In this document: positions 14,851-63,654 of the stretch, one piece after another
Layout: every line of letters starts with the position of its first letter
How positions within the stretch are numbered: position 1 is the first letter of the stretch
NCBI GenBank assembly: GCA_051362555.1
Contig: CM120643.1
Span: 15,288,644 to 15,352,643, forward strand
Reading direction: 5' to 3'
Length of the DNA: 64,000 nt
Origin: Lingula anatina
Taxonomy: Eukaryota; Animalia; Brachiopoda
Made by a program: the position numbers and the translations under genes
The notes under the pieces: generated by a model
The model's database searches: none
Told to the model about the DNA's origin: nothing
The model's input: the letters and a program-made list of their open reading frames with translations, nothing else

Positions 14851-14934
<84 letters not shown>

Positions 14935-39077: not shown

Positions 39078-40193
39078 ATGTCGGATACAAGAAGCGACAG
39101 TAATGTCAATCTTGTGACGAGAACCAACCAGTTGGAAGGTAATTTTGCCTTTCAAATGATTTGTATGAATGTTTTCTTTAACCAGGAATCATTTTGCGTT
39201 AACATTTTTATATAACGTTTATTGTAACCGGTGTACCATAAAAAACTGATTCTTTTAAAAGGTGACTCCCCAGTCAGATTTTCATAATGAAAAGGTGACT
39301 CCCCAGTCAAACTTTCATGATAAAATTTTGACTCCCCCCACAAAACTTCGTAAATTTGATTTTATTTGAGTATATGACTCTGGGAGTCAAGATTTCATGG
39401 GGGTAGTCAGATTTTTATAATGAAATGTTGACTCCCGAAGTCAGATTTTCATGTTGAACCGGTACTCAGTACGACTTGACGAGCACGTACATTATGCATT
39501 ACGTAACTAATGGAACACAATAAAATGTGGTAACGTTTCTGAGCTGTGAACAGTGATTTTATTTTATATAACAGTTATAGGGACGGATTTAGGCCGTCTT
39601 CTGGGTCTTCCGGAAGACGGTCAGATTTTCAAGTTTACAATGAAAGGTATCTAATTTTTTCTGTTGGAAGACGGTCAAAGAATGAAGGATGGATCAACAA
39701 ATATAATATGGAAGACTGTCAGAAAATATCTCTGGATCCGCCCCTGTTAAACTCATACGTTTTTTTCACTCATAGCGTTGCAATTTCTTTGCGATTTCAA
39801 AGAATGCTTTATGTTGGTTGGTAAAGCTTGTATTTCGTCTTTCTTAGTAAAGAATTTGCAATTTTGAATCACTTTCGTCAAATTAAGTGCGTAAATTTCT
39901 TCTCTCCAAGGATCGCGGTTGCTGACAATTTTAACCTTAGTGATATGTGGCCTGATTGCGATAGTTGCGCTCATCATCTCAGCCGTCGCAATCTCCAAAC
40001 CCGCTGGCTCTGACATTACAGGTCAGGGTTCAACAACAAATATTCAGCAAACTCAGTCTGCAGTTGCAGCCAGTACCTATGACGCCATCAACCGATATCA
40101 GGCCTTCAATGAAAAAAGAATTTACACAATTGCCCTTGGATACGATACTGGGGCTTTTGATTATAAGTAAGTAAAAAAATAGTTGGCATACAG

Positions 40194-40241
<48 letters not shown>

Positions 40242-40793
40242 TGGCGGTTTTAGAAGGGGTATCAAGGGGGTCTTCAGCCCCCTTTGGTTTCCGAAAATAA
40301 TCACTAATATTTCCTTCTTGAAATTAGAATTTTAACAAGCTGATTTATAGTTCTTAACCGTTCCAAATGGCACCGTTTGACCTTCAAAACAGCAAAATAT
40401 TTTAGGGACCTCCAGCGGGCCCCGAACCCCACCACAAAGGGGCCGAGGGTCGGCTTTGAATCCGAGGTCTGTCATTCCTAAAAAACAGTGACCCCCCCCC
40501 CCCCCCACCCTCTTTCAAATCCTGGACCTGCCTTTGTCTTACTATCTGTATATCGCATTCAGCATACAATAATGCAAAAATTTATTTAATATATTATTTA
40601 AGCATAAATCGTTTTTTTGCTATAATTTAACCAATTTTATGAAAGTGTGACAACATAAATTTATGGGCCATGGTAATTTTTTACCTCTGAAGTCACCGAC
40701 CTTTAATGGGTTGTCTCTTACATGTACATATCCCATGTTTATTTTTTTAAAAATTATTTTCATAAAAAATATTAATTATGTGTGTGTGAGTGC

Positions 40794-40838
<45 letters not shown>

Positions 40839-42002
40839 AATGGTAGGCGCAAATTTAGTAAATTAAACTTATATCTTTAATTCCATATACCTTTTCAGTG
40901 ACGACAGCGGATTTAAAGTTGGATTCTTTCCTGAAATAGTAGACGCAGGTAATGTAAAAGTTCTTGTTTGATTCGTGTTTAAGCATACTTTGGTATCAAC
41001 AGAACTGCGGAAAATGTCAACAATGAAATTTTAGATTTAGATAATATAAACTGCTTACCTTATTCATTGCACCATCTAATCAACGTGAGCGGTGGGTATA
41101 CACATTGTTTTACGCCCGATCCGTATCGTCAGTCGGAGCCTGCATGCCGGCGGATACAAGTATCTCCCAATATGAGAATAGTTTCTATAGATGACCAAAA
41201 AAAGAAAAAGTTACTGTTAACTTTCTAGCCCTCAAATTTTCAAAACTAGCAAAGATACACCCATGGTTACTATTGAACTTAAATTGGAAATCATATATTG
41301 GCAACTTTAATGCGACCTTGAATATGATCTTTGACCTAATTTTCGCCATGAACTGTACTTCGCAAATTTTCTGGTCCTTATATCAGCAAAACTATAGTAG
41401 AAGAGATACAGATCACAATTTCTATCAACTAAGATAGAAAATCATATTTTGTTAATTCAAATGCAACCTTAAATTTAACCCTTGACCTGTACACATTTTA
41501 GCCCTTTTATCTCCTAAACCATATTTAGTTACTGTTGAACTTGAATAAAAATGTATATCATATCAGTCCTTTTCCAAATTGAACGATCAAGTTCATTTGA
41601 TCTTTATTCCCAAAAGATTCCTTTCAAGTTAGCTTTGGTATTAATAAATGTGAAGTAATTTAAGGGAAAATATGTTCCTTCTCTGCACAAATATCTATAC
41701 CACCAAGTCCACTAAAACGAAATCTTTCATATATGATGGTTTTCTTGTGTGTGGTGATTGACATTTAATTGTACAGTACATAGCACACAACGTGCCAGTA
41801 CACGGGTTCTTCATATTGCAAAACCCTTTGAATCTATACATTGGAGTTTCAAATGTGGCTCCTGAGTTACTGGTCGAAAAAGTACATTTTTACAAGTGTG
41901 CGAGCCACAGTGGGCCAAAATTTAAAACCCTTCATAGCTCTTTTTAGTCACTGTCTGTGTATAGATACTCAGGTGGTAGTGTTGCCTCTCTGTTCTTGTA
42001 GT

Positions 42003-42041
<39 letters not shown>

Positions 42042-44599
42042 TTTTGAGTGTGCGTGGAGGCGGGTTTAGATTGTAGGACGGTCACGGAGCCATACACAAA
42101 CTGTATGACATCGGAGAGAGGGCAGCCGCAGCGAGGGGGGATAGGTAAGGGTGATTTTTAGTTACATGATTATAAAGCGTTCCTTTAAACGCATAGTTTT
42201 CAATTCTACTTTCTTCTCATAAAGTGAAGTTGAAAAAGGTGTTTTGGTGAATCTAACAACAATACTGCTCAAATTGGCTAGGTTGAGTTACATTTTGTTT
42301 ATCGTTGAACAAGATATTGTAATTTGAGAATTTGAATGTAATTTTACCCTGGATTTTGTCTATATATGGAATAATTTCAGGACTTATGGCAGGTTGGTAC
42401 GACGCCTGCACCGGGTGGCTGGCCACACGTCAACGAAAGCAGTTTTTCTCATTTTCCAAGCCGTTTATGAAACCTTTCGAGGTCTATTTCTTCGCCTTTC
42501 CTGGGTTTAACCCATTCAATATCACAGGGAAGAAAATAGGTTAGTTAACATGTATTTTGATATTAGTAAAGATCATTTAAATTAAAAATTTCTGCGACCA
42601 GTCATTCTCATTTCAACTCTTCCAATCCCGAGTACCCGGCACTTTACTGAGAGATTAAAAAACACTTTACAAAGTTACCTAACTGTTTCAGCCTATTATA
42701 GAGCTAGGTGCAATACCGCCAAATTAGTCAGTTTCCATTTATATTATATTTCTTTATCCTCTTCGAGCCATGATCGTTGTATACTGACTCCTTACAGGAC
42801 TGGCCAGCGGTTGGTTCGCAAACGAAGCCTGCATAGCCGGACTGGACCAAGTGGCTGGAAGAGAAGTCCCGCACTCCAATGTTTTCCACGCCCAGACACT
42901 TGACGAGCTCCTGGCTATGATCCAGAACGGAACTGTAAGTATTTTACTATGTTGCCAGATTTGTAACGTTCCTTCTGAATTAGACAATACACTGTTATTT
43001 TAATAGCAGTCAAGTCTTTAGACTTTTTAAAAACCTTTTTTTTTTCATTTTCCAATTACTTGGTAGCACGTTCAAAACTTGCAATTTAGTGCGGGGCTGT
43101 TGTTGAGAAGACAGCATTAAGAATATTAAGCTTGTTGGTTACTTAGGGGCCATTCAGAAAGAATGATCCGAGTACTTGCTGATCCGCCGACCAAATATGG
43201 CCGACCACAGTTCAAAAGCAATGCCGCCAATTCCTGATGGTCTCCCCGACTCCACACGCGCCTTTAAACGGATTCAATATCTACTCTGTTCAATTGCTAG
43301 GCGCCTACAGCGACAGCGTGTAGCGCTCGTAGAAGATTATGCATTTTTTTTTCTTTTTTTTTGCTATAAGCATTAAACTGGACAAAAAGTTATACCGGTC
43401 TTTTACGGCATTCTCGCATGACCTAAATTTGGTTTTAAATCTCCAAGACTGAGAGTACGAAGTGTTGATGAAAAAGTTTCAATGAAACTGATTTTCATCG
43501 TCCTTTACACATCTCTTCAATTGCCCAATTTCGGCTTTACCATCGTCATTGAAACGGCTATGCGGCAACCAAAAATATTTCCAAGATCATTAGCTCGATT
43601 AGCGTTGAACCACATTTTTAATAAAAGGCATAGAGTCTCTCGTCGAGTCTTCAATTTAAACTTTGCAATTAGGTGATGGTGAATTGTTTTCTACAGCAAT
43701 CATTTCATCCTGTCTAAATTTTACAGGTAGATGCGGGGTTTGGAACAGGATCTGCGTTAAACATCAAAATCTCTGGCACTAATATCCAAAAGTTCCCCTC
43801 GGACCCCATCTTCTGTAAAAATACCGCAGGAGGAGGAATGATGACCCGCAAAGACAATGACTTTAACTCTAAATGGAATCAAGGGTTTGAGAAACTTGTT
43901 TCTTCAGGTCGTTTCAAACGCCTATGTGATGAGGCACGAACCAAGCACGGTAAGTTGGAGTAAATCTGTTGATAAGCAATGTCAGTCTTCGTTACTTAGC
44001 ACCTTCATTAATATCTCTTAATAATATGGTAATTGGTGTGACTAAAATGCAGGCAGTGCAACGCCAGGGTAAGTCAGAAGAGGCGCTGATTTCAAGGCTA
44101 GCAAAGGATTGTTAACAACGACCACACTTAACATGTATTTTCATATGTAGGCGTTTGAGGTCAACAAAACGAGATCCGTTTTGGTTTAGGGTTCCTTCGA
44201 GTACAAACGTCGGTACGAAAATGACACTGCTTATTATTTTCTATTTAAATTTTAACGTAGCCTTATGGGTCTGTTAGTCAAAAGGGTTTACCAAGCGGTA
44301 ATACATATCGCCGTCTTATGCAGTTTCGTAGACAGTTCGGTTGCCTTCGTGAAACGTGCATGAGCATAATCTTTTTGAACGTCTGGTTGGTGCATTACAT
44401 CGTGTATAAATGGACTAATGAAAGTTGCCATTGCCAGTGACAGTTTGGATATATACCATTTTCTTTTAGGTTCTGATATTATGTGCTTCGGACCTGTATA
44501 CCTGTATTCGGGTTTCGTTTGATAAAAACGTGATTTCATTTCATTCTAACTTTTGTCTCTACAGGTCATCGCGGTGAGATTAACTGCGTGGATGCCTAA
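39078..44599 (+). CDS. Copy A: type II membrane protein with extracellular SBP family 3 / PBP2 (periplasmic amino-acid-binding protein-like) domain, 338 aa
   Basis: Exons 39078-39138, 39911-40166, 40899-40948, 42049-42144, 42381-42539, 42798-42934, 43727-43949, 44565-44599 join into an open frame: MSDTRSDSNVNLVTRTNQLEGSR-TM(LLTILTLVICGLIAIVALIISAVAI)-S/T/Q stalk-RIYTIALGYDTGAFDYNDDSGFKVGFFPEIVDAVC..AGLDC...GLMAGWYDACTGWLATRQRKQFFSFSKPF...ITGKKIG...TLDELLAMIQNGTVDAGF...GMMTRKDNDFNSKWNQGFEKLVSSGRFKRLCDEARTKHGHRGEINCVDA. Confidence 0.88.
39226..39462. mobile_element. Small element with internal GACTCCCCAGTCA subrepeats in intron 1 of copy A
   Basis: Bounded by AACCGGT at both ends with imperfect inverted termini. 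The paralogous site in copy B (~46671) has a single AACCGGT. Confidence 0.6.
40239..40535 (-). mobile_element. GGCGGAT-terminus MITE family copy in intron 2 of copy A
   Basis: Termini AGTGGCGGTTT...AAATCCTGGACCTGCC. Reverse-oriented relative of 47316-47559 and 51146-51410; similar fragments at ~37049 and ~39578-39746. Confidence 0.55.
41085..41610. repeat. TGACCTT-rich interspersed repeat in intron 3 of copy A
   Basis: Internal repeats GTTACT(A/G)TTGAACTT, ATCATAT, GACCTTGA. Absent from the short intron 3 of copies B, C and E. Confidence 0.5.
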
Positions 44600-44607
44600 A
44601 CAACACA

Positions 44608-44903
44608 TATCCGTTACCTTCACCTCGATGGCTTGACCATTCGACTAGGTATTCATAAACTTCATCTTGTGACTAAACCTCAGAACTAAGCATCAGTAAT
44701 GATGGCGCAACCAAAGGACAAGACATCCGTGACCTTCACCTTGATGGCTTAACCGCAGGACTAGATATCGGTGACCTTCACCTTGATGGCTTAACCATTC
44801 AACGAGGCATTCATAAACTTCAACATGATAACTTAACCAGAGAACTAGACATCCGTAACCTGCACTTTTGACAAGAGACACCCTTGACCTTCACCTGGAT
44901 GGC
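44608..44903 (+). repeat. Degenerate ~42-bp tandem repeat directly after the stop codon of copy A
   Basis: Unit approximates ATCCGTGACCTTCACCTTGATGGCTTAACC(N)AGGACTAGAC, about 7-8 units. Homologous arrays lie at ~49992-50225, ~57172-57388 and ~60610-60670. Confidence 0.8.
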
Positions 44904-45104
44904 AAATTGTGAAATTTTGCCAAGAAGGAATCTACCCCCTGTATAAATAACTAATGGATAAAACCGAACATCCAACAAAATTTCATACTTATACTAAAAT
45001 GACCATCAAAAGGCTAAAACTGGCAATTCAGCGTACCCTTTATACACATACCAGTTATTTGTCTCACTAAAAAAGGAATTTTTGGATTTTGGCCGTTTCC
45101 ATGG

Positions 45105-45733
45105 TTACGTTACGTTATCAGCTCTCGTCTGGCAAACGATTTGTTGCAGAAACACAGGGGTCTGAGGATGGGCCAACAGTCTTTGGGTCCTGATATTAAT
45201 CCTACCGAACACCTGTGGCATGAATTGGAATGTGCACTGCAGAGGAGAACCAATTCCCAAATAATCTTGACCAATTCTGCCACGCTCTTTAGGATGAATG
45301 GGACAATATCCCACATAACAGAATTGTTACCCGTGTTGAAGGCTTGTCGCGCCGTCTACAGGAGATAATTGCAGTACGCGGTAGACGCACACGCTGTTAG
45401 GCACGTGATCTTTAACGAGCACACCCTAATGCTAATTGTCCGTGAATTTGGGGACATTTGATGGCGTCTTTTCAATTTTATAGACATTTCTTTACATCTG
45501 TAGAAGTCACAGTGAAACAGTGGATTTGAGGGGGTACCTCTTATAAATTTGACTAAATGGTATAAAATATGTATATTTTTACCTCTATTTTGTATTTTTT
45601 AAACCATTAATCATGTAAGACACGGTATCTGTAATAAAAAGCACTATTTCTAACAATTTACAGCTGTGAGGTGATCATTTGTAATTAAAAGTACATGAAA
45701 ATGGGGGTGGGACAACCTTTTTGACCAATGCTG
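45105..45733 (+). mobile_element. Tc1/mariner 3' remnant with transposase C-terminus
   Basis: GPDINPTEHLWHEL (SPDLNPIEHLW motif), then frameshifted EWDNIP...LSRRLQEIIAVRGRRTRC*. Ends in TIR GGGGTGGGACAACCTTTTTGACCAATGCTG followed by TA. Confidence 0.88.
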
Positions 45734-46521
45734 TATATTATATAAGAAAGGCAGATGGAAAGAAAGGCTCCTTATTATTACACAGTAAACAAAATCCACT
45801 AGTGGTATAATGTTACATTTCCCACGTACAGTATGCGGCCTGCAGGGAGACACGCTTACCTTGATGTTTTCCTTAATAATATTTGTGTCCATGGCACTGG
45901 GAAGATTCATATCAAATCACCGTTGAGATCGTAAAGGATTAAAATCCCTGAAGAAGGCCTAGGGGCTGAAAACTTGGATTATATATTTTACATCTTTATA
46001 ATAGATCTTCATAAATGTATCAGTATTATAACTTATTTACATTTGGCACTGAGGCAAACGTGTATTGGAACACGCACACGTGAAGCATATGGCTAATTTG
46101 AAAATGGGAAGATTACCAGTTTTAACCAACCAACCACGACTGCATTTGCCTTTAAAATAAGATTCATACGACATAAGAATAAAAAGCTAGCAATTTCTTT
46201 TTTTTTTTTTCGCTTTTGCTGTAGAAAACATGCCATCAGACTTAGCTTCAACTTGGAAGGCAGCTTATTTCAAAACGGTTGGGGGAGGGGTTTGAGTTAA
46301 TGATTTGAAATTAAACCGTGAGGGCATACAGTATATTTGAACCTTCCTTTCAGCATATCACATTTACTGAATCCTTTGTCGGGAACACTAAGTACTGTAT
46401 TCGCATTTGCATAATTCATTCTTGACTCTCTTTTTAAGCAAAACAGGCAGTGCCTGTATAATTTGTGCCTTGCATGAACAAGTGGATAATATTTGTCCTT
46501 GATAGAGACCCCTATTCCAAG

Positions 46522-47267
46522 ATGTCGGATGCAAGGCAAGGCAGTAATGTCAATCTCGAGACGAGAACCAACCAACTACAAGGTAATATGCCTTAAAAAG
46601 ATTACGACATATGTTTTCTTTTCACCAGACAGCTACAGCTGAGATTTTCTGTACTCGATTTCATTTATTGGAACCGGTACTCAGCATGATGAATATGTAC
46701 GGAGGGGTGACATAAGTACAAGGGCATTGCACCATCGAATTACTGTATTCGCATTTGTTCGTTAACAGTGATTTGGGGTTTGTTGCTCGTCTAAACCTTG
46801 ATGGATGTTCATCCATGTGCAGTACCAGTGTAAAGGGTGTCATCGATGGTGTCACGCCCTTCTGGCTGTCAAGTTTCTACCATGGTAAATGTACGGGAGC
46901 TCACACATGAAGGAAGAAAATAATTTTTTTCAGGTTAGTCCCTTTATTGCTTTTCTTCCAGCCACCTTCGTACTGACAACAACCATTATGATAAGTGTAC
47001 TGATTGCGATAGTTGCGCTCATCATCTCAGCCGTCGCAATCTCCAAACTCGCTGGCTCTGACATTACAGTCCAGGGTGAAACAACAGGTACTCAGCAAAC
47101 TCCCCAGCCTGCAGTAGCCTACTCACCCAGTACCTATGACACCAGCCGGTGTCAGGCCTCCAATAGAAAAAGAATTTACACAGTGGCCGCTGGATACGAT
47201 ATTGGGCCTTATGAATATAAGTAAGCAGAAATATAGCTCCCATAACGGGATAGATGTGTGTGTCTGT

Positions 47268-47298
<31 letters not shown>

Positions 47299-47368
47299 GG
47301 GGAGCAAAGGTGGGGTAGGGGCGGAACCAGGATTATTTGAAGGAAGGGTCTGCAAATGCCAGGTCGGC

Positions 47369-47399
<31 letters not shown>

Positions 47400-49982
47400 A
47401 AAATTTTAGAGGCGATCGGTGCCATTTGGTACGGTTTATATCTATGATTCAGCTAGTCAAAATTCTAATTTCGAGACAGACCATTGTGGCTTTTTTTCAG
47501 AAATCGAAGGGGGAGGGGTCAGGACCCCCCCCCTCCGACACCCCCTCAATCCGGCACTGTTGGGGAGGGAGATGCGTAAAATATGCAAACCTGATAACTT
47601 AAACTGTCCGTATAACCTTTCAGTGACGACAGCGGGTTTCAAGCTGGATTAGGTCACGACCTTATAGACGCAGGTAATCAAAATTTTCTTTTGAACAATT
47701 TGTATGGTTCTTGTTTATATATCATTAAATTATACTCTGAAAAATATCAACTTGGAAGTCAATGGTTTATTTATTTATTTGAGTGTGTCAGGAGGCGGGA
47801 ATTGATTGCAGGATTGTCACGGAGCCATACACCAACTGTATGTTCTCAGAGAAAGGGCAGCCAGAGAGAGGGGGGATAGGTATGGAGAATTCTTTTATTT
47901 ATCTCATGGCAGTTGGTTGTCAAAACGAATATCTTTTATTTCTTCGTTTTATATTTTATTTCTTTCGAAAACGCGCTTAAAATTCTAAAATGTATAGATT
48001 AACTGAGACTGTTAGGCGATATATTAGTCTACATGTAGATCTGAAGCTTTTCCTATATGTTAAATTTTTGTTTGTGGTTTATAGTTGACCATTATATTGA
48101 AATTAGTATTAGTATCGGAGTATAAATTTTATCCGGGATTTTGTCTCTTCATGGGATCATTTCAGGACTTATGGAAGGTTGGTACGACGCCTGCACCGGG
48201 TGGCTGGCCTCACGCCAACGGAAGCAGGTTTTCGCATTTTCCAAGCCGTTTTTGAAACCATTTGAGGTCTATTTCTACGCTTTACCTGGATTTAATCCAT
48301 TCAATATCACTGGGAAGAAAATAGGTGAGTTATGCTGTCGACAGCTAATTAAAATTTATTAACTCCTGATATTTTTGATTTTTTTTTCATTTGGGTTCCT
48401 TCTGGTGTTCAGTTGTAATGTTACATTTCATGAAGAATGCCAACACCAAGTAAGGATGTCTTGTAGCTGCCAAGAACCTTCGAAACCTGCATGGCGCCTT
48501 CTATCTTAGATCCAAATCTAAAAGAATATTGTGTGTGCGATCTTAAATTCAAACTAAGACCAAAGACTTTAAATCAGCCCGTTAGTGTTTTAATATAATT
48601 TCACGGTTTACCCTCAAGTTACAAATTATTTCAGGGATTTTTCTTCGTTTTTGGTACCTTTTTGTGATCAGTTATGAATTTGTTAAATTATCGGCAAATT
48701 ATAGAGAAAGGTTTATGCCATTTTAAGGAAAACAGGGATTAGAGAAGAAAAGCAGTCACCCAAAGGCAGTTTGTACCATTTTAATTTTAATATTAAAAGA
48801 ATTTAATGACATAGTCGTTATTTCGGGTAGCTGTCGCACACCTGGATGACAACCTATATTCATCGAGGCTCTGATATCAACCGTTTCTGCAAACAGTATC
48901 CAAAAAATGAAATTTGTTTCGTGGGCTATCAAAGTTAACCAGACCTATGCCTACAAACATGAGTCTTTTAAAAGCGGCCCATGGGTGTTAACATGCATGC
49001 TGACTCCTTACAGGACTGATAAGCGGGTTCTTCACTAACGAAGCCTGTCTGGCCGGACTGGACCAGGTGGCTGGAAGAGACGTCCCGCACTCCAACGTTT
49101 TCCAAGCCGAGACGCTTGATATGCTCCTGGCTATGATCCTGAATGGAACTGTGAGTGTTTTCCCATGTTACCTGTTTTTGCAAGTATTTTTAATACGCCC
49201 ATATGTTTTAAATCCCACAGCATCCCAGTGTTCAGACTTCGCCCCTTTTCATTATTGTGAAATAAGCTCTATTCTTTACCAATCATTTAATACTTCCTAA
49301 ATTTTACAGGTAGACGTGGGTTTAAGCACGGGGCCTGCTATGGCCACCAAAATCAATGGCACTAATATCCAACGGTTCCCATCGGATCCCATGTTCTGTA
49401 AGAATGCCGGGCAGCCCGGAATGATGACCCGTAAAGACAATGACTTCAGCTCTAAATGGAATGATGGGTTTGAGAAACTTGTCTCTTCAGGTCGTTTTAA
49501 ACGGCTATGTGATGAGGCACGGATCAAGCACGGTACGTCTGGGCGATTCTGTTGATTAACAATATCAATAATATTAGGCAGTTTTGATTACTTAGTAGGC
49601 CTATGTTCTTTTAAGTTTTAAGTTGTTAAAACAACTAAGGATCTATTTTTCTGTACTTAATTTACACTATACGTGTATAAAATATTGAAAATTCAGGCTA
49701 TATAATGTAAGCAATGTCGCTAGGATTTGCCACAATAGACGCTGTTTTCAAGACTAACAGAAGGTTGTGATCAAAGCCAATCTTTTTTTTTCACGGTCGA
49801 AGATACCCTTATATGATAAAAAGACAAATTCATTACATTGAAAACAAAGTTATAAATAAAGATATTATTTCATGTATAAATATTATATTTATGATCGACA
49901 CGTGATTTCATTTAACGTCACATACATTGTAACGTTCGTCTCAACAGGTCATCGCGGTGAGATTGACTGTGTGGATGCCTAA
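46522..49982 (+). CDS. Copy B: membrane-anchored SBP3/PBP2-like protein, 339 aa
   Basis: Exons 46522-46582, 46962-47220, 47624-47673, 47784-47879, 48166-48324, 49014-49150, 49310-49532, 49948-49982; same phases as copy A; open frame ending HGHRGEIDCVDA*. Confidence 0.88.
47316..47559 (+). mobile_element. GGCGGAT-terminus MITE family copy in intron 2 of copy B
   Basis: TAGGGGCGGAACCAGGATTATTTGAAGG...AATCCGGCACTG; close match to 51146-51410. Confidence 0.6.
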
Positions 49983-50403
49983 CAACAGCTGGGATCTTTA
50001 ACCTTCACCTTGATTGCTAAATCACAAAACAATGCATCCGTTACCTTCACCTTGATGGTATCAAGACAGAAATATAGGAATTTGTAACTTTCACCTTGAT
50101 GGTTAAAACAAAGATGTAGGCGGCCGTAACCTGAACTTTGATGTCTTAATCCCAGAAGATATCTATGACCTTCATCTTGATAGCTAAACCACAGGACGAG
50201 GCATCCGTAAACTACACCTTATGGCAACTTGTTGAACTTACAAGAAACCACGACGAAATATATAAATGAATCTAATGAAAAGAATCGATAATAAATCCAC
50301 TGATGATGTGCGAACTTCATGTTGATTATAGGATGACCACCAACGATATCAATTTCAGACCCGCACTGCTTTTTTAAGGAAGCGCAACTGTAATGCCAAC
50401 AGG

Positions 50404-50405
<2 letters not shown>

Positions 50406-50467
<62 letters not shown>
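50406..50467. repeat. (TA)n microsatellite
   Basis: About 30 TA units. Paralogous positions (~57556, ~60830) have only a short TTATTACAT.TATATG. Confidence 0.95.
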
Positions 50468-50468
<1 letters not shown>

Positions 50469-52441: not shown

Positions 52442-55400
52442 ATGTCGGATGCAAGGAGCGACAGCAATGTCAACCATGCGACGAAAACCACCCAAGGTAA
52501 TTTGCCTTAGAAAAGATTTGGACAAATGTTTTCTTTAACCAGAAAACATTTTATTAAAGTAGCGATTTTCTGTACTCGATTTCATTTATTAAAACCGATA
52601 CTCAGCATGTAGAACATGTACAGAGGGATGACAAAAGTGCAGGGGTAGTGTATTATCTATGTGAATAGTTCGTTGTGTGATATGGAGGGTCCCGTTAGAA
52701 AAAAGTGATTTGTGGTTTATTGCTCGTCTGAGCAGTGATGGATTTTCATCCATGTGCACTATAAAGGGTGCCATCAATGGTTTAATGCTTTCTGGCTGTC
52801 AAGTTTTTACCATGGTGAATGTACGGGAGCTTACACATGCAGAACAAAAATAAAAGATTTTTTTAGGTTAATCCCTTTCTTTCTTCCAGCCACCACGACA
52901 ATAACCATAGCGATATGTGTTCCGATTGCGATAGTTGCGCTCATCATCTCAGCCGTCGCAATCTCCAAACCCATTGGCTCTGACATCACAGTCCAGGGTG
53001 AAACAACAGGTACTCAGCAAACTCCCCAGCCTGAAGTAGCATACTCACCCAGTACCTATGACGCCAGCCGGTGTCAGGTCTCCAATAGAAAGAGAATTTA
53101 CACGCTGGCCATTGGATTCGATATTGGGCCTTATGAATATAGGTAAGTAAAAATAAGCAGAAAAAATGGGGTAGATGTGTGTGTGTGTGGGGGGGGGGGG
53201 TTACATAAAATCTGCAAATCTGATAACTTAAACTGTCCGTCTAACTTTTCAGTGACGACAGCGGGTTTCAAGTTGGATTCGGTCGCGACCTTATAGACGC
53301 AGGTAAGGTTCTTGTTGAAATACCCCTTGATAACAGTAACACTGCGAAAAATATCAACTTGAAAGTCTATGGTTTATTCATTTAATTATTCATTTTTATT
53401 CATTCAATTATTTCTTTATTTGAGTGTGTCAGGAGGCGGGAATTGATTGCAGGATTGTCAGGGAGCCTACCACCAACTGCATGTTCTCAGAGAGAGGACA
53501 GCCACACAGAGGAGGGATAGGTATGGAGCATTCTTTTATTTATCTCATAGAAGATGGTTGTTAAAACGAATTTCTGCTCTTACTTCATTTCATGTTTTTC
53601 TTTCTTTCGAAAACGCGCTTGGAAGCAAAATTTTTCATGGGCGAAGTGAAGTTGACAAAGTTCAATGTCAGAAAATAATCAAAGTGGTTTGGTATTCATT
53701 TTAGTTAGGTCAACTTTTTATATGGCGATCGATGTTGAAGACAGTTTGTTCAGTTTTATCCTAATATGTATTGACTAAGACTGTTTTGTGCTATATTGGA
53801 CTAGGACCGAAGCTTTCCCAATATGTTTTACTTTTGTTTAAAGTTGAACATAATATTGAAATTCAAGTATTTGAATATAAATTTTACTTTGAATAATCCT
53901 ATACATGGCATCATTTCAGGACTTATGGAAGGTTGGTACGACGCCTGCACCGGGTGGCTGACCACACGTCAACGGAAGCAGATTTTCGCATTTTCCAAGC
54001 CGTTTTTGAAACCTATCGAGGTCTATTTCTACGCCTTTCCTGGATTTAATCCATTCAATATCACTGGAAAGAAAATAGGTGAGTGAGTTATCTTGTATTC
54101 ACGTGTTAGAAGAAATAATTTGAGTTAAAATTTCTCCAACCAGTTATTTAATTATTCACTTCAGCTCTTTTTCTCAAGAGTACCCGCTCTTTTTCTGGTA
54201 TTACTATTTAACTGGAGTATAGCATGTAGATAGTTCCGAACTATATATAGATTGTATAAATTGATGGAATATTTTCACAAATTAATGTATTTGCGATTCC
54301 AAAAAGGTCAAACTACAATGTAAGACAAGATTCGCCATTCACCTAGGTTATTAGTATTTTATTTTTATTTCAACTATTAACTCAATTTAAATTCATTAAC
54401 TCCTGATATTTTAAACGTTTTTTTTTTCATTTTGGTTCTTTTTGGTGCTCAGTTGTAATGTTACATTTCATGAAAAATTCCAACACCAAATAAGGATGTC
54501 GTGTAGCTGCCACAAACCTATGGAACCTGCATGACGTCATCTATCTTTGATCCAAATCTTTAAGAATACTGCATGTGAGATTTCACCAGCTCGTTGGTGT
54601 TTTAATATAATTTCAAGGTCAACCCTCAAGTTACAAATTTAAATAATTTTTGGGGATTTTTTCTTCCTTTTGTACCTTTTCGTGATCAATTATGGTTAAA
54701 TAATCGGCAAATTATGGAAAAAGTTAATGTTAAGAAAAACAGGAATTAGATCAGAAAAGCGGTTATCCAAAGGTGATATGTACTATTAAAAATTTAATGA
54801 CATAGTCATTATCTCGGGGAGCTGTCACACACGTCCTCTATTCTTGAGGTTCTAACAGAACCCGTTTCTGCTGTTTGTTGGCTCAGATGAACCCAACACT
54901 TAAGAACGCCTGCCTTAACTCATCTCTAAAATCGGCTGGTCCTCATTCGTGCTTAAAGTACGATGAAGAGCATCTCAATATGTTGCCATCAGCGTATCGT
55001 GTAATGTCGTATTCAGACTAAGTAAGATCTCTTTACATAAATGTTTACGTCAAATTTGACCGCAGTACTGAACACTTCTATTCAGATAATGGATATTTAC
55101 GGGAATAGAGGATCCCCCTGTTTGAGACCCCTAGCGACACTTTGAATGTCTCCAAAAAAACTTAAAAAATTATACATTGCAAAATAAATATATTTCCACT
55201 ATTCGGAATCAAAAGCCTTTTCTCAACCTATTGTAACAGAAGAAAGAATGTTGGTTTGGGTGCTTTGGGACAAAAGGCGACAATTGCAGGGACAAAAAAG
55301 GAAGGAAATGAACTTTTTATCTCTAGCTGTCACCCCGCATTTGCTTCTTAAAGGCATCTGCTATTAGGAATAATAAATCTTTTTAAGTATAAATAACTTC

Positions 55401-57161
55401 AGTTCATATGTCCATGGAATTGTCAAGGAGGACTTTGGCGGTCTAAATCATTTGTGGTTCTTACACACTTGCTTTATTTTTCTGGGAGGGGGGGGATAGC
55501 ATTTGGCGCGAAGATGCCGTATTGGATACCATTAAATACAGTGCATGTACGCATCTATATATCTGAAACAACAGCAACGCCTTGCCTTGAATGGGGCTTT
55601 CATGTAATAAAACTACAATTGCTGTATCTTGGGTAGAAAAACAATAAACAAAAGTCAAGGCCAATTTTCGCTTTAAAGTTCTATTATGAAATAAACCGCA
55701 AGCCGACACCTGTTCCCTTAACGACGTCAAAAAAGTCAGAATCGGCCTCGGAATTAAAATTGGCATAGACAAAGTTGAGTGTTAAAAGTCAACCGTTGAC
55801 CAATAAGCTCTGTGACCAATATCCAAAATTGGACTTTGTTTTGTCGGCTAACAAAATTGACCAGGGCTATGCCTACAAACGAGTCTCTAAAGCGGCCCAT
55901 GGGTGTTAACATGCATGCTAACTCCTTACAGGACTGATAAGCGGGCTCTTCACTAACGAAGCCTGTCTAGCCGGACTGGACCAGGTGGCTGGAAGAGACG
56001 TCCCGCACTCCAACGTTTTCCACGCCCAGACGGTTGACGAGCTCGTGGCTATGATCCAGAACGGAACTGTGAGTGTTTTTCCCATGCTACCTCTTTTTGT
56101 AACTCTTTTTAATACGCCCATGTGTTTTAAATCCCACAGCATCCCAGTGTTCAGACTTCACCCCTTTTCATTATTGTGAAATAAGCTTTATGACTTAACA
56201 TTGGCCAGAAAAGCTACGTTAGGCTACTCGCTACTATGATCTACTGGTTAAGCTGCATATATACGTGAAATATTTCGCATCACTAAGTAACCCTCTCAGT
56301 CTTAACTGTTTAAACAGATGCTGTATGTATATAATATATTCCAGCTTTACCATCGTCATTCATTTGTTATTACAACCAAATACGTTTTCAAGATCATCTA
56401 ATGAATTTCAGCGGTTAAATACATTGAGGCGCATCAGCTCTCGACAATTATGAACCTTTTTCAGTGATGTCGAAATTTGATGTTTTCTTTACCAATCATT
56501 TTATACTTCCTAATATACAGGTAGACGTGGGTTTTAGCGCGAGGACTGCTTTGGCCACCAAAATCAATGGCACTAATATCCAACACTTCCCCTCGGATCC
56601 CATGTTCTGTAAGAATGCTGGACAGCCTGGAATGATGACCCGTAAAGACAATGACTTCAACTCTAAATGGAATGAAGGGTTTGAGAAACTTGTTTCTTCA
56701 GGACGTTTTAAACGCTTATGTGATGAGGCACGGATTAAGCACGGTACGTCTGGGCAGTTTTGATTATTTATAATTACCAGTAGTATGCTCTTAATAACTA
56801 AGGATTTATTACTTAATTTACAATACGTATATTGATAACTGCAAATATACACTGTACAGGTTAGGTAATGTAAGCAGTGTCGAAAGAAACCGCCACAAGA
56901 GGTTCTGTTTTCAAGACTAACAAAGTATTGTTAACAAAGCCAATATTTTTTTTCCTCAGTCGAAGCTTCCCTTATAGAATATCAATACAAAATTATTACA
57001 TTGAAAAAAAGTTATCAGATTAAGATATGGCTTAATTGTGGTAATGTTTAATGTATAAATATTACATTCATGATCGACACGTGATTTCATCCAACGTCAC
57101 ATACATTGTAACGTTTGTCTCAACAGGTCATCGCGGTGAGATAGAGTGTGTGGATGCCTAA
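52442..57161 (+). CDS. Copy C: membrane-anchored SBP3/PBP2-like protein, 335 aa
   Basis: Exons 52442-52496, 52890-53142, 53253-53302, 53425-53520, 53920-54078, 55932-56068, 56521-56743, 57127-57161; open frame ending HGHRGEIECVDA*. Confidence 0.88.
54960..55260 (-). mobile_element. L1/Tx1-type LINE reverse transcriptase remnant in intron 5 of copy C
   Basis: Minus-strand motifs in correct order: EKAFDSE*WKYI (~55205-55222), RGLKQGDPLFP (~55100-55132), ITRYADG (~54985-55005; degenerate YADD). Confidence 0.8.
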
Positions 57162-59095
57162 CAACAGCTGGGATCTGTAACCTTCACCTTGATTGCTGAA
57201 TCACAAAACAATGCATCCGTTACATTGACCTTGATTGTTACAACACAGAAATATAGGAATTTGTAACTTTCACCTTGATGGTTAAAACAAGGATATGGGC
57301 GGCCGTAAACTGAACCTGATGTCTAGATCACTTGGCCTTCAGTTTGAAAGCTAAACCACAGGACTAGGCGTCCGTAACTTTAATGGCAACTTGTGGAACT
57401 TACAAGAAGCCAAGGCGAAATTTATAAATGAAACTTATGGATAGAATCGAAAATTTATTGATGATGTGCGAATTTCATGGTGATGAAAAGATGACTACCA
57501 ACGATATCAGACCCGCAGTGTTTTTTAAGGAAGCACAACTGTAATTCCAACAGGCTTATTACATGTATATGCATAACTTCAGTGCTGCAGTTGACAATTA
57601 CCATTACAATTGACTAATTTTATTAAGTTCTTTTTTTGTTTTTGACAAAATCAACAGTCTCATGAAAGAAATGTTTACAATCGAAACAAGCTGTTTTATT
57701 TTTATTTTTCATAAGACTCCTTTTTTAATTTAATAGACTAATTTAGCAAAGAAAAAACGACCAGGCGGCGCCGTGCTGACTGCGGTAAGGAGAAGTGGGT
57801 TATATAATGCTAAGAACTACGATTTGTTAAAATGTTTAAAATAGGTAATTCTGACACTTCCTGTTTGGGCATAGCCTCGTTTTGGCCTACGACAAAGACC
57901 ATAGGTTAACTTACATGTATTAACAAAATTTGAAAAAGGTGATGCTTTTGTTTAAGTTGTTATACATGTATTTACATACATGAAGGCATATTTTACAAAT
58001 ATGAGAGGAGGATAGTGTATCAGGCAAATACACATTTTGAATTACTACAGCTGGATCCATCAATTAAAAATCGGATTAAGTTGAGTCCGTAGCCAACGGT
58101 ATGCGCCATATCTAACTAGCTGCGACCCTATTCAGCAGAATGAAAATGGTATAGTTCGGCAGGTTCATTTGCGAAATATTTTACTTTTTCAGAAACCATG
58201 TAGAAAATAAAGATTCAAACGAAAAAACCTCAGCTTTTCAACTCATAGCCATTAACGCGGGTTCTTTTGGTTCGTGATAACTTTGCTGACTTGGACTCAA
58301 GCACTGAGACAATTAAACGTGTATTGGAACGCGTATAACGTGGTTGAATTTAGGGATGGAAAGAATACCTGTTTTACCTAAGCAACCGTGACAGCTTTGA
58401 CCTAAAAAATCCCATGAAGATAAAGAGGAGTAAGAATGCTTGTAATTTACTTTTTATTTGCTTTTGCTGATTAATGCATTCCTATGGCGTGAACTTCAGT
58501 CTAAAGGGAACTTATACAGAAACATTTGCTTATCAATTTTCTAAAAAAGTCACATCTTTGTTTAGAGCGAAATCTGCACAGACTTCTTCCACTGATTGAA
58601 TTTAATACCACACCATGTATAGAACATTAAAAATATTCCAATATTTTTAATACTGTGGTCTCTGACTGGAGGAGGATGTCAATTTAGTTGAGGTCCAAGG
58701 CCAGACAGTAAGCAACCACTGTTGACGTCCTCAAGGTTGGTTTACTGCTTTTTTTTTCTGAATCAGTACTTCATTGGAATAAATTCATGGATGTTTTTTA
58801 TGATAAGTACGCTTTTTCTTGCTCTGTGATTAAACTTTTTAGACCGTGATTTTGCAGTTCGTTAGTGATTTTACACGTTGTTAATTGGCAGTATATTTTA
58901 ATCAAGTGATTCAACAGTACTCGGTTTTGGTTGCAGGCTTTATGCACACCTGGTAGGGTATAAAAAGTAGTCACACTTGCATAAGTAAGCTGGTTCTTTT
59001 TTACTCTTTTTAATGTTAACAGGCACAATCCGTGCCTAGCATGAACAGATAGAGATTATATTACATTTGTCCTTACTCAAGACCTCTAATCCAAG

Positions 59096-60599
59096 ATGTC
59101 GGATGCAAGGAGTGACAGCAATGTCAACCATGTGACGAGAACCATCCAAGGTAATTTGTCTTAGAAAAGATTTGCACAAGAACTCCTGATATTTTTGAAC
59201 CTTTTTTTTCATATTGGTTCCCTTTGGTGCTCAGTTGTAAGGTTACATTTTATGAATGCACCAAGTAAGGATGATAAGACTAAATGTAACTTAAAACCAG
59301 GCCGTTAAGGTTTTAATATATATATATGTCAAGGTCTACCCTCAAGTTACAAGGAGTGGGGAGGGGGGGGGAGATTTCATGTAATACATGTAAGACTACA
59401 ATTGATGTACTTTGGGTTCAAAAAGAACAAACAAAAATCAATGTCAATTTGCAGGTTAAAGTCTAGTCTTTAAAGTCAATTGTTGACCAATAAACTCTTT
59501 CATTAATATTAAAAATAAAAAACTTTGTTTCGGCGACTATCAAAGTTAACCAGACCTATGACTACAAACATGAATCTTTTAAAAGCGGACCATGGGTGTT
59601 AACATGCATGCCGACTCCTTACAGGACTGATAAGCGGTTGGTTCACTAACGAAGCCTGCCTGGCCGGACTTGACCAGGTGGCTGGAAGAGACGTCCCGCA
59701 CTCCAACGTTTTCCACGCCCAGACGGTTGACAAACTCCTGGCTATGATCCAAAACGGCACTGTGAGTGTTTTCCCATGTTACCTGTTTTTGTAACTATTT
59801 TTAATACGCCAATATGTTTTAAATCCCACAGCATCCCAGTGTTCAGATCCCTTTTCATTAATGTGAAATAAGCTCTATTCTTTACCAACCATTTAATACT
59901 TCCTAAACATTACAGGTAGACGTGGGTTTTAGCATGGGGACTGTTTTGGCCAACAAAATCAATGGCACTAATATCCAACAGTTCCCCTCAGATCCCATGT
60001 TCTGTAAGAATGCCGGACCACCTGGAATGATGACCCGTAAAGACAATGACTTCAACTCCAAATGGAATGAAGGGTTTGAAAAACTTTTCTCTTCAGGACG
60101 TTTTAAACGGCTATGTGATGAGGCACGGAGTAAGCACGGTACGTCTAAAAATACTATTGATTAACAATGTCAGTAATAATAGGCAGTTTTGATTACTAAG
60201 TATGTTCATAATAATTAAGGATCTATTACTTAATTTACCGTTCGTATATTGATAATTGCAAATTCAGGCTAGGTAATGTAAACGATGTCGCAAGGATCCG
60301 CTACAATAGACGCTGTTTTCAAGACTAACGAAGGGATGTTAACAACGCCCATGTTTTTTTTTTTTTTTATTTTTTTTATTTATTTTTTTTTTTACGGTCA
60401 AAGCTACCCTTATAGGATATCAAAACAAAATCATTACATTGAAAAAACAAAGTTATCAAATTAAGATATTGCTTGAGGTGATGCTTCATGTATAAATATA
60501 ACATTCATGACACGGCACGTGATTTCATATAACGTCACATACATTGTAACGTTTGTCTCAACAGGTCATCGCGGTGAGATTGACTGTGTGGATGCCTAA
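59096..60599 (+). other. Copy D: internally deleted SBP3-like gene (exons 2-5 missing); exon 1 plus exons 6-8 still splice in frame (149 aa)
   Basis: Exons 59096-59150, 59625-59761, 59916-60138, 60565-60599. Intron 1 sequence is fused to intron 5 sequence at ~59180. No stops or frameshifts in the retained exons. Confidence 0.85.
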
Positions 60600-62459
60600 C
60601 AACAGCTGGGATCTGTAACCTTCACCTTGATAGATAAACCACAGGACGAGGCATCCGTAACTTCTATGGCAACTTGTGGAACTTACAAGAGGCCACGGAA
60701 TCTAATGGATAGAACTGAAAATTTATTGATAATGTGTGAATTTCAAGCTGATGAAAGGATTACCACCAGTGATATCAAGTTCAGACCCGCAGTGTTTTTT
60801 AAGGAAGCACAACTGTAATTCCAACAGGCTTATTACATTTATATGCATAACTTCAGCGCTGCAGTTAATAGTAATCATCATTTCATTACCATTACAATTG
60901 ACTAATTTTATTAACTTCTTTTTTTGGCAAAATCAACAGCCTCATGAAAGAAATGTCGTCTTCGGAAAAGAAAAACAGAACTTTTTATAATCGTAATAAG
61001 CTAGCTATTTTATTTTTTATTTTTCATGTGACGCACGAGGCTTCTGGTTTTATTTAAGAGACTAATTTAGCAAAGGAAAAACGACCAAGCGGTGCCGTGC
61101 TGACTGCGGTAATGCATTTATATGGGTTATATAAAGCTAAGAACTAAAATTTGTTAAAATATTTGAAACTGGTAATTCTGAAACTTTTTGTTTGGGCATA
61201 AATGAAAATTATAGCCTCGTTTTGGCCTACGACAAAGACCATAGGTTAACTTACATGTATTAACAAAATTTGAAAAAGGTGATGCTTTTGTTCAAGTTGT
61301 ATTTACATACATGAAGGCATATTTTACGAATACGAGTGGGGGAAATTGTATCAGGCAAATACACATTTTGAATTACTATAGCTGGATCCATCAATTATAA
61401 AACTCGGATTAAGTTGAGTCCGTAGCCAACGGTATGCGCCATATCTAACTAGCTGCGACCCCATTCAGCAGAATGAAAATGGTATAGTTCAGCAGGTTCA
61501 TATTTGCGAAATATTTTACTTTTTCAGAAATCATGTAGAAAATTAAGTTTTACACGCAAAAACCTCAGCTTTTCAACTCACGCGGTTTCTTTTGGTTCGT
61601 GATAACTTTGCTGACTTGGACGCAAGCCCTGAGACGTTTATTGGAACATGTACAGTATAACGTGGTTGAATTTAGGAATGGAAAGAATACCTGTTTTACC
61701 TTAGCAACCGTGATAGCTTTGACCTATAAAATCCCATGAAGATTAAGAGGAGTAAAAATGCTTGTAATTTACTTTTTATTCGCTTTTGCTGATTAATGCA
61801 TTCCTAGGGCTTTAACTTCAGTCTTAAGGGTACTTATACAGTGATGTTCATAAGTGAAGAAACATTTGTTTTTCAATTTTCTTTTTAAAAAATCAAACCT
61901 TTATTCAGAGCGAAATCTGTACAGACGTTTTCCACTGATTGAATATAATACCACACCATGTATAAAACATTTAAAATGTGACAATATTTTCAATACTGTG
62001 GTCTATGACAGGAGTGAATGTGAATTAAGCTGAGGTCCAAAGCCAGACAGTTAACAACCACCGTTGACGTTCCCAAGGCTGGTTTAATTTTTATCTGAAT
62101 CAATATTTCATTGGAATCAATTAAGGGATGGTTTTTTTGATAAGTAGACTTTTTATACTCTTTTTAGACCGTGATTTTGCAGTTCGTTAATGAATTCCCA
62201 CTTTGTTAATTAGCAGTTCATTTTAATCAAGGGACTTGTTATTTCAAGTAAAAGAGTGAACACAAACATTTGAATATTATTTACTTGTGCTCGGTGTCTG
62301 GTTGCAGGCTTTGTGCACACCTGGTAGGGTATAAAAAGTAGTCACGTTTGCATAAGAAAGCTGGTTCTTTTTTTTAATGTTAACAGGAATAATTAGTGCC
62401 TAGCATGAACGAATAGGGATTACATTACATTTGTCCTTGTTCGAGACCTCAAATTCAAG

Positions 62460-63245
62460 ATGTCAGATGCAAGGAGCGACAGTAATGTCAATCATGTGAC
62501 GAGAACCAACCAGTTGGAAGGTAATCCTGCCTTTCCAAATATTTTGATAAATGTTTTCTTTAGCCAGAAAAGATTTATAAAATCAGTTATTTTTATGTAC
62601 GCGAGATTTTTTTCAAAGAATGATTTGGCGAACATGTGAATCATGACATAACTGATGAATACAATATAAAAGTCCAAAGGGAAGGTAACATGGAAAATAT
62701 GTGGTTACCAAATTTGACGCTCCTATGGTGGTTTTAACAAACTTTAAGTTCCAACATATTTACTAATTTGTAAAAGTATGATCAACTCTTATTACATTCT
62801 TGATATAAGCTTTCGTTGAACGCATCGCATTTCACTGAGATAATCTACAGCAATTTACTTCACAGGTGGTTTCTACAGTGTGCATTCTTATCCTTATTAA
62901 GAGTTGTCACTTGCGAATGTCTCTTATTTGATTAAGTGCTTAAATATACTTTCTTCCAGCCAGTCGCATACTGACAGTAACCATAGTGACATGTGTTCTG
63001 GTTGCGATGATTGCGCTCATCATCTCAGCCGTCGCAATCTCCAACCCTGCTGGCTCTGACATTACAATCCAGGGTACAACGGCAAATATTCAGCAAAATC
63101 AGCCACCCAGTAGGGCCTATGACGCCATCAACCGATATCAGGCCTCAAACAATAGAAGAATTTACACGATTGCCGTTGGATACGATACTGGGCCTTATAT
63201 ATATAAGTAAGCAGAAGCATTGGCCACATGCCGTGTGCGCGGGAG

Positions 63246-63284
<39 letters not shown>

Positions 63285-63654
63285 CTGTGTGTCAGAGAGA
63301 GAGAGAGAGAGAGAGGGTAAAATCTGCATATCTGATAAATTTAACTTTCCGTATAACTTTTTAGGGACGTCAGCGGATTCCTAATTGGATTCAATCACGA
63401 CTTAATAGACGCAGGTAATCAAAATTTTCTTTTGAACAATTTGTTTCGTTGTATAACATCCATTGATAGCAATAATACTGCGAAAATATCAACTTGAAAG
63501 TTAATGGTTTATTTATTTAATTAAAAAATTTTATTCATTCCATTATTAATTTTTTAAGTGTGTCAGGAGGCGGGAATTGATTGTAGGGTTGTCAAGGAGC
63601 CTTCCACCAACTGCATGTTCTCAGAGAGAGGACAGCCACACAGAGGAGGGATAG
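62460..63654 (+). CDS. Copy E: membrane-anchored SBP3/PBP2-like protein, exons 1-4 (continues past the window end)
   Basis: Exons 62460-62520, 62960-63206, 63365-63414, 63559-63654 are open and phase-consistent. Intron 4, homologous to that of copy C, runs to 64000. Confidence 0.85.
63249..63315. repeat. (GT)n/(GA)n compound microsatellite in intron 2, shared in position by copies A, B, C and E
   Basis: GT runs at 40196-40239, ~47255-47282, ~53176-53189 and 63248-63280; GA runs at ~40800-40830 and ~63294-63315. Confidence 0.9.

What the first reader, a model, noticed from the sequence alone, without database searches (positions are those of the whole stretch)
40120..63654. Paralog differences concentrate at predicted ligand-pocket positions
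The scaffold is nearly invariant (GWYDACTGW, FNPFNITGKKIG, GMMTRKDNDF), but pocket-equivalent segments vary. A/B/C/E: ALGYDTGAFDY / AAGYDIGPYEY / AIGFDIGPYEY / AVGYDTGPYIY; GFFPEI / GLGHDL / GFGRDL / GFNHDL; EPYTN / EPYTN / EPTTN / EPSTN. A/B/C/D: SGWFAN / SGFFTN / SGLFTN / SGWFTN; GFGTGSA / GLSTGPA / GFSARTA / GFSMGTV; NTAGGG / NAGQPG / NAGQPG / NAGPPG. The acidic residue that binds the alpha-amino group in HisJ/GlnH (VDAxxxD) appears replaced by T/T/A/M. Inference: a diversifying receptor-like repertoire, perhaps for ligands other than standard amino acids.
Basis: partly seen in the sequence, partly recalled or inferred. Interest (0 to 1): 0.7.

Follow-up and report, generated by a model that had tools for sequence, protein, structure and literature searches.

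The report
Brachiopod bacterial-type binders with diverging clefts
A lamp shell (Lingula) carries a row of recently duplicated genes for proteins with a bacterial nutrient-binding fold and a predicted membrane anchor; the copies differ about twice as often around the predicted binding cleft as elsewhere, so they likely bind different small molecules, although positive selection and any ligand remain unproven.

Summary
The region is a tandem array of intron-containing Lingula genes (A, B, C whole; D lacking exons 2-5; E cut by the window end). They encode a short tail, one hydrophobic helix and a HisJ/LAO-type solute-binding domain (Pfam SBP_bac_3; model Z 23.3 to LAO). All quoted motifs are present. 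With a published cleft definition, 26 of 56 cleft positions vary against 41 of 193 others (p=0.0003); the excess is absent among older relatives. The scaffold is not nearly invariant (67 of 249 sites vary). Cleft dN/dS is 0.8-1.6 against 0.3-0.4 elsewhere, but never significantly above 1, and site models are not significant, so relaxed constraint is not excluded. The carboxylate-binding Arg is kept. Loss of the amine-binding Asp is family-wide (9% Asp), not special to these copies. The family is old and widespread (annelid, amphioxus, echinoderms, hemichordate, protists) and I found no paper on it in 8 searches. Close paralogs are spliced and expressed. There is no signalling domain, so 'binding subunit' fits better than 'receptor'.

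The parts
36115..36270 (+). Decayed remnant of a further copy (anchor-helix exon with in-frame stops)
   Evidence: 73-77% identical to exon 2 of A, B, C, E; stops in frame
39078..44599 (+). Gene A, 8 exons (39078-39138, 39911-40166, 40899-40948, 42049-42144, 42381-42539, 42798-42934, 43727-43949, 44565-44599), 338 aa
   Evidence: GT-AG introns, open frame; most divergent copy, best RefSeq match 83%
46522..49982 (+). Gene B, 8 exons (46522-46582, 46962-47220, 47624-47673, 47784-47879, 48166-48324, 49014-49150, 49310-49532, 49948-49982), 339 aa
   Evidence: 94% identical to LOC106158025, with 5 differences in the binding domain, none at my 15-site pocket set
52442..57161 (+). Gene C, 8 exons (52442-52496, 52890-53142, 53253-53302, 53425-53520, 53920-54078, 55932-56068, 56521-56743, 57127-57161), 335 aa
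   Evidence: identical to LOC106158026; junctions 2/3, 3/4, 4/5 seen in RNA reads of close paralogs
59096..60599 (+). Gene D, exons 1, 6, 7, 8 only (59096-59150, 59625-59761, 59916-60138, 60565-60599); exons 2-5 deleted at about 59180; exon 1 to 6 would stay in frame but lacks the anchor and most of one lobe; probable pseudogene
   Evidence: expression not tested
62460..63654 (+). Gene E, exons 1-4 (62460-62520, 62960-63206, 63365-63414, 63559-63654); runs off the window
   Evidence: identical to the first 151 aa of LOC106158024
53973..53975 (+). Arg77-equivalent codon of C (A 42434, B 48219): predicted carboxylate clamp, invariant
   Evidence: Arg in 92% of 168 family domain rows
56539..56541 (+). 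Asp161-equivalent codon of C (Ala; A 43745 Thr, B 49328 Thr, D 59934 Met)
   Evidence: Asp in 9% of 157 family domain rows
53469..53471 (+). Phe52-equivalent codon of C (Thr; A 42093 Tyr, B 47828 Tyr, E 63603 Ser): aromatic in older relatives, variable here
   Evidence: RNA reads show Ser in one run and Phe in another

Best explanation
This is a young tandem array of intron-containing Lingula genes whose proteins carry a bacterial-type two-lobed solute-binding domain behind a predicted membrane anchor; the copies keep the arginine predicted to clamp a carboxylate and differ fastest around the rest of the predicted cleft, so they likely bind different carboxylate-bearing small molecules at the cell surface. 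Shown: gene structure, fold, conserved Arg, loss of the two amine-locking residues, cleft-biased divergence, expression of close paralogs. Inferred: type II orientation (tail inside, disulfide-rich domain outside); closure of the lobes on a ligand; a ligand without a free alpha-amino group or bound by other means; partly selected rather than purely relaxed divergence; unequal crossing-over that re-pairs the two cleft faces. With no signalling domain, the proteins would capture, buffer or hand over ligand to a separate transporter or receptor rather than signal themselves.
For: Fold: Pfam SBP_bac_3 47.7 bits vs cut-off 26.4, 15 of 15 alignment members match; model pLDDT 86.9, best Z 23.3, rmsd 3.0 over 223 residues to an LAO mutant, tied with 3h7m and 3i6v. 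Anchor: one 21-residue hydrophobic stretch in A, B, C, E and no second one; eight domain cysteines at least 90% conserved in 108 sequences. Cleft bias: 26 of 56 vs 41 of 193, p=0.0003; without gene A 16 of 56 vs 27 of 193, p=0.012. It holds against sites matched for secondary structure and for variability in older relatives (p 0.0002-0.035) and is absent among 13 older relatives (p=0.49-0.85). dN/dS 0.29-0.37 outside the cleft shows a scaffold under purifying selection. Near-identical pairs keep their pockets: 1 pocket difference among 14 domain differences in B/P0004, P0005/P0033, P0006/P0034. Spliced reads of close paralogs in 2 of 3 RNA runs. RefSeq LOC106158019 is B-like to codon 191 and A-like from codon 207 (max-chi p=0.0005). 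Precedent: NocT keeps Arg77, loses Ser72 and Asp161, and binds opines, not arginine (PMC4192606).
Against: No test shows dN/dS above 1: site models p=0.08-0.26. Cleft estimates are 1.63 (0.78-2.9), 1.5 (0.92-2.27), 0.92 (0.52-1.5) and 0.78 (0.56-1.0) for four definitions, and the two larger published sets give the lowest values. Narrow definitions are not significant in the window copies alone (p=0.10-0.27; without A p=0.15-0.29). D, the remnant and two truncated RefSeq models (P0011, P0012) show gene decay. The pocket was mapped by alignment to LAO, not from model coordinates. The Ser72 equivalent is Leu, whereas NocT needs Gly there to fit the opine. Gene C itself was not seen expressed (2 of 640 RNA reads at 99% or more). 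The mosaic RefSeq model could be an assembly or annotation join.
Confidence: 0.55

Rival explanations
1. Relaxed constraint after duplication: redundant copies keep the fold, but the cleft is no longer policed and drifts at about the neutral rate; the copies bind the same ligand or none, and several are dying.
For: Cleft dN/dS close to 1 with intervals including 1; M1a fits as well as M2a; D is truncated, a remnant lies upstream, P0011 and P0012 end early.
Against: The Arg and Gly-Trp anchor end of the cleft does not change in window copies; 60% of codons fit dN/dS near 0; transcripts are abundant in two runs; the four side-chain-end residues named in PMC7815116 give 2.27 (1.0-4.37).
Confidence: 0.3
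2. Ligand-binding subunit of a true sensory or immune receptor complex: each copy pairs with a channel or GPCR and the array is a selected chemoreceptor repertoire.
For: At least 11 RefSeq loci in one young clade; different copies dominate different RNA samples and one sample has almost none (369, 4 and 267 reads); the fold is shared with iGluR ligand-binding domains.
Against: No cytoplasmic or channel domain; no positive selection shown; no partner identified; tissues of the RNA runs are unknown.
Confidence: 0.1
3. Ecto-enzymes derived from a solute-binding protein, as cyclohexadienyl dehydratase is; the cleft changes tune substrates.
For: Type II anchoring is typical of ecto-enzymes (recalled); cyclohexadienyl dehydratases are among the profile hits (5jos E 6.6e-15).
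Against: Those enzymes rank below the binding proteins by sequence and fold; apart from Arg77 and cysteines no polar cleft residue is near-invariant across the family.
Confidence: 0.05

Closest known systems
Bacterial polar amino acid solute-binding proteins, family 3 (LAO/ArgT, HisJ, ArtJ, GlnH)
   Same: Two-lobed fold (Z 23.3), Pfam family, Arg77 and the glycine-containing strand beside it
   Different: About 18-21% identity; eight cysteines; an 11-residue insertion; Ser72 to Leu, Asp161 to Thr/Ala/Met, Asp11 to Gly; N-terminal anchor helix; seven introns; no ABC transporter genes beside it
Opine-binding proteins NocT and OccJ of Agrobacterium
   Same: Arg77 kept, Asp161 lost; NocT also loses Ser72 and does not bind free arginine (PMC4192606, PMC5740067, passages read)
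   Different: NocT signature Gly97-Met117-His170-Ser207 is not matched (Leu; Glu or Val; Ala/Thr; Thr/Ala/Met); the acidic residue for the guanidinium is Gly here
iGluR and plant GLR ligand-binding domains
   Same: Same fold in animals (Z 16-19, GluR0 21.5) with the equivalent Arg (equivalence recalled)
   Different: Domain is uninterrupted, no pore segments; no iGluR chain among the best 60 of 87 sequence-profile hits
Automatically annotated invertebrate proteins (RefSeq 'arginine-binding periplasmic protein-like' in Anneissia; UniProt 'solute-binding protein family 3 domain-containing' in Owenia)
   Same: Same family: anchor plus cysteine-rich SBP_bac_3 domain, 36-39% identity for Owenia and amphioxus
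   Different: Names are automatic; residues shared across phyla (His, Trp/Tyr, Tyr, Asp, Trp at cleft positions) have been replaced or vary in the young Lingula clade

Membership tests
Solute-binding protein family 3 (Pfam SBP_bac_3) domain | Score above the curated Pfam cut-off | tested here: met
   47.7 bits vs 26.4 for C = P0007; 15 of 15 members match
Solute-binding protein family 3 (Pfam SBP_bac_3) domain | Two-lobed type II periplasmic-binding fold | tested here: met
   Z 23.3, rmsd 3.0, 223 aligned; model pLDDT 86.9
Polar amino acid binding proteins (LAO/HisJ/GlnH type) | Arg77 for the alpha-carboxylate | tested here: met
   Arg in A, B, C and in 22 of 22 sequences of alignment A2
Polar amino acid binding proteins (LAO/HisJ/GlnH type) | Ser72 and Asp161 locking the alpha-amine | tested here: not met
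   Leu; Thr/Thr/Ala/Met; role of the two residues from PMC4192606
Polar amino acid binding proteins (LAO/HisJ/GlnH type) | Partner ABC permease and ATPase genes beside it | tested here: not met
   Neighbours in the window are ANF_receptor, short-chain dehydrogenase, twisted gastrulation and aquaporin genes; sequence beyond the window end not seen
Polar amino acid binding proteins (LAO/HisJ/GlnH type) | Binds an amino acid | not testable with these tools
   Needs a binding assay
Ionotropic glutamate receptors | Ligand-binding domain split by pore-forming segments | tested here: not met
   No hydrophobic segment after the anchor; only SBP_bac_3 in Pfam
NocT-type opine binders | Gly97-Met117-His170-Ser207 signature | tested here: not met
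   LAO equivalents 72, 92, 122, 161 are Leu; Glu or Val; Ala/Thr; Thr/Ala/Met
Positively selected receptor repertoires | A class of sites with dN/dS significantly above 1 | tested here: inconclusive
   p=0.08-0.26 with only three whole and two half copies
Positively selected receptor repertoires | Variation concentrated at the ligand surface | tested here: met
   marginal for narrow sets in window copies alone
Positively selected receptor repertoires | Own signalling domain | tested here: not met
   About 20 residues before the anchor helix, no domain

The most novel reading that the evidence does not exclude
Marine animals and protists share an unstudied, disulfide-stabilised family of bacterial-type binding proteins, and Lingula has turned one branch into a selected, recombining cell-surface repertoire that reads out different N-substituted or amine-free carboxylates (opine-like, betaine-like or peptide ends): a new kind of invertebrate chemosensory or microbe-sensing front end.
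Probability: 0.2. Interest if true: 0.8.

Novelty: new variant of a known kind. Interest (0 to 1): 0.5.

Why it matters
Stand-alone family 3 solute-binding proteins are treated as prokaryotic; in animals the fold is known mainly inside glutamate receptors. Here is a widespread family (125 clusters at E up to 1e-30) in a brachiopod, an annelid, amphioxus, echinoderms, a hemichordate and protists, for which I found no paper. The Lingula array is a natural series of 76-90% identical proteins whose clefts differ, which makes ligand discovery and the choice between selection and drift directly testable. The pocket-divergence pattern itself is common in duplicated binding proteins and is moderate here.

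Tried and rejected
No whole genome is held for this window, so copies beyond the window have no DNA for codon tests. Pfam on single exons gave only weak hits. Site models were not significant. A split of my pocket set into anchor end (0.01) and side end (2.9, 1.8-4.8) was made after seeing the data and is not used as evidence. Tyr190 was dropped from my 16-site set for uncertain alignment; with it dN/dS is 1.38 instead of 1.5. Seven of the 15 sites of that set were recalled and chosen after I had seen the alignment, so the published sets carry more weight. Two pattern scans of prokaryotic genomes found no relative (10 and 21 pattern matches, none confirmed); such scans miss distant relatives, so origin by gene transfer is neither shown nor excluded, and the tree leaves deep branches open (quick search only). 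No RNA holder was listed for the stretch. Only gene C exons 1-5 were laid with reads; expression of A, B, D, E and the D deletion in other individuals are untested. Atlas searches returned only bacterial SBP_bac_3 clusters. Earlier scan findings: nothing by sequence or place; eight unrelated prokaryotic notes by words. No complex prediction was run, as no partner is claimed. Paper supplements were not read and may list these genes in expression tables.
Full report
What the region is. The window is animal DNA. A search with one exon returned 10 hits among 48 candidates, all Lingula anatina RefSeq proteins. Splice-site modelling gives five copies on the plus strand: A (39078-44599), B (46522-49982) and C (52442-57161) with eight exons, GT-AG introns and open frames; D (59096-60599) with exons 1, 6, 7, 8 only; and E (from 62460), cut by the window end. 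A decayed remnant lies at about 36115-36270. C equals LOC106158026 letter for letter and E equals the start of LOC106158024. Each whole protein has about 20 residues, one hydrophobic helix, a low-confidence stalk and a 249-residue domain. Type II orientation is inferred from eight conserved cysteines and two or three N-glycosylation sequons in the domain; whether the helix is cleaved was not tested.

Fold and family. The domain passes the Pfam SBP_bac_3 cut-off (47.7 vs 26.4 bits). A model from 108 sequences has mean pLDDT 86.9 and matches an LAO mutant at Z 23.3, rmsd 3.0, 223 residues, tied with a sensor domain and an opine-family binder; eukaryotic iGluR domains score 16-19. A first model from 22 sequences was weaker (pLDDT 70.1, best Z 14.4). 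The family is old. A profile search found 125 clusters at E up to 1e-30 and 368 up to 1e-10. Named members include Owenia and Branchiostoma. Of 20 representatives looked up, 7 carry organism names: Lingula, Anneissia, Apostichopus, Saccoglossus, Acanthaster, Prasinococcus and Namystynia. Nineteen Lingula RefSeq loci turned up, some perhaps alleles. The window copies fall in one clade of 13 rows with support 100 and a long stem (quick tree, SH-aLRT only).

Is variation concentrated at the cleft? Sixty-seven of 249 domain positions vary among A-E, so the scaffold is not nearly invariant. I mapped LAO numbering by alignment and used pocket lists from papers. Eight alanine-scanned residues (PMC7815116, passage): 4 of 8 vary vs 63 of 241, p=0.14; three or more states 3 of 8 vs 20 of 241, p=0.03. 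Sixteen binding-site residues (PMC5740067 Table 3, passage): 7 of 16 vs 60 of 233, p=0.10. Cleft-facing lobe residues (PMC13041562, passage; 56 mapped, 1 not): 26 of 56 vs 41 of 193, p=0.0003, and p=0.012 without the divergent gene A. Radical differences among ten young-clade proteins are twice as frequent in that set (0.21 vs 0.10, p=0.0004). Thirteen older relatives show none (p=0.49-0.85). Matching for secondary structure and for variability in older relatives keeps the effect (p=0.0002-0.035 for the 8- and 15-site sets).

Selection. I wrote codon models for the five window copies (three whole, two half). Overall dN/dS is 0.40. On the two best trees M1a/M2a gives p=0.26 and 0.20, M7/M8 0.12 and 0.11, M8a/M8 0.11 and 0.08. 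Fixed partitions give cleft ratios of 1.63 (0.78-2.9; 8 sites), 1.5 (0.92-2.27; my 15 sites), 0.92 (0.52-1.5; 16 sites) and 0.78 (0.56-1.0; 56 sites) against 0.29-0.37 elsewhere. Random site sets reach these values in 37 and 5 of 20000, about 210 of 10000 and 1-3 of 5000 draws. The cleft evolves faster than the scaffold, but no interval lies above 1. Power is low and recombination is likely, so selection and relaxation cannot be separated here.

What the cleft says about ligands. The Arg77 equivalent is invariant in the array and is Arg in 92% of 168 family domain rows; the Asp161 equivalent is Asp in 9% of 157 rows (147 proteins examined). Ser72 is Leu and Asp11 is Gly. The loss of the acidic residue is thus an old family trait. 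NocT keeps Arg77, lacks both amine-locking residues and binds opines but not arginine (PMC4192606, passages); D161I weakens lysine binding of an LAO sensor about twentyfold (PMC4917951, passages). A carboxylate without a free alpha-amine is therefore the likeliest ligand class (inference). The NocT signature is not matched, and Leu in place of its Gly argues against opines specifically. Several positions shared across phyla (His at LAO 12, aromatic at 14 and 52, Asp at 118, Trp at 120) are replaced or variable in the young clade, which suggests a ligand shift on its stem.

Expression and turnover. Reads laid on C exons 1-5 at 90% likeness gave 369, 4 and 267 reads in three RNA runs, spliced at the modelled junctions 2/3, 3/4 and 4/5 in two runs. 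Nearly all are 90-99% alike, so they come from paralogs or other haplotypes; only 2 of 640 reach 99%. Their loose ends read like LOC106165202 and LOC106152969 (my reading). At the Phe52-equivalent codon they give Ser in one run (157 of 158 reads) and Phe in another (33 of 33, if the third base is unchanged), against Thr in C. D has lost about 1.9 kb relative to C, from intron 1 into intron 5. LOC106158019 switches from B-like to A-like between codons 191 and 207, around intron 5 (p=0.0005). That boundary separates most residues of one cleft face (exons 2-5) from those of the other (exons 6-7), so crossovers there would re-pair the two faces; an annotation artefact is not excluded.

Literature. 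Eight searches aimed at this family returned no description of it. I saw listings only, plus one passage of bioRxiv 10.1101/120998 on SBP_bac_3 domains inside sponge iGluRs. The library lacks most subscription papers and I read no supplements. RefSeq and UniProt already label members automatically.

Verdict. A real, moderate cleft bias in a young birth-and-death array of an apparently unstudied eukaryotic solute-binding family. Diverging ligand preference is the best reading (0.55) and relaxed constraint the main rival (0.3); a signalling receptor repertoire is possible but unsupported. Interest 0.5.

Noticed in passing
window 1-3752, minus strand: Exons of a class C GPCR, metabotropic glutamate receptor-like (ANF_receptor, E 2e-12); the mGluR label is my reading of the translation
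   Followed up: partly
window 13702-17554, minus strand: Short-chain dehydrogenase exons (adh_short), resembling 3-ketodihydrosphingosine reductase (label recalled)
   Followed up: partly
window 19691-21835, minus strand: Twisted gastrulation gene (Tsg_N)
   Followed up: partly
window 28956-32989, minus strand: Aquaporin gene (MIP), the nearest identified gene upstream of the array
   Followed up: partly
window 42049, 47784, 53425: Exon 4 of A, B and C uses a rare GAG acceptor (AAG in E); the junction position is confirmed in paralog reads, and 5 reads use an acceptor further downstream
   Followed up: yes
P0003 (LOC106158025 isoform X2): RefSeq isoform that skips exon 5 in frame and so removes the Arg77-equivalent
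   Followed up: no
window 44600-44900, 49980-50200, 57160-57400, 60600-60680: The 3' UTR region of each copy holds several degenerate copies of a short repeat unit seen by eye and in the self-comparison
   Followed up: no
P0067, P0116, P0141, P0145, P0073: Long multi-domain members in protists and unnamed records with three to five tandem binding domains; P0067 also has thrombospondin repeats
   Followed up: partly
P0065: Unnamed three-domain member with a lipoprotein-like N-terminus and the same cysteine pattern; may be bacterial, no genome match found
   Followed up: partly
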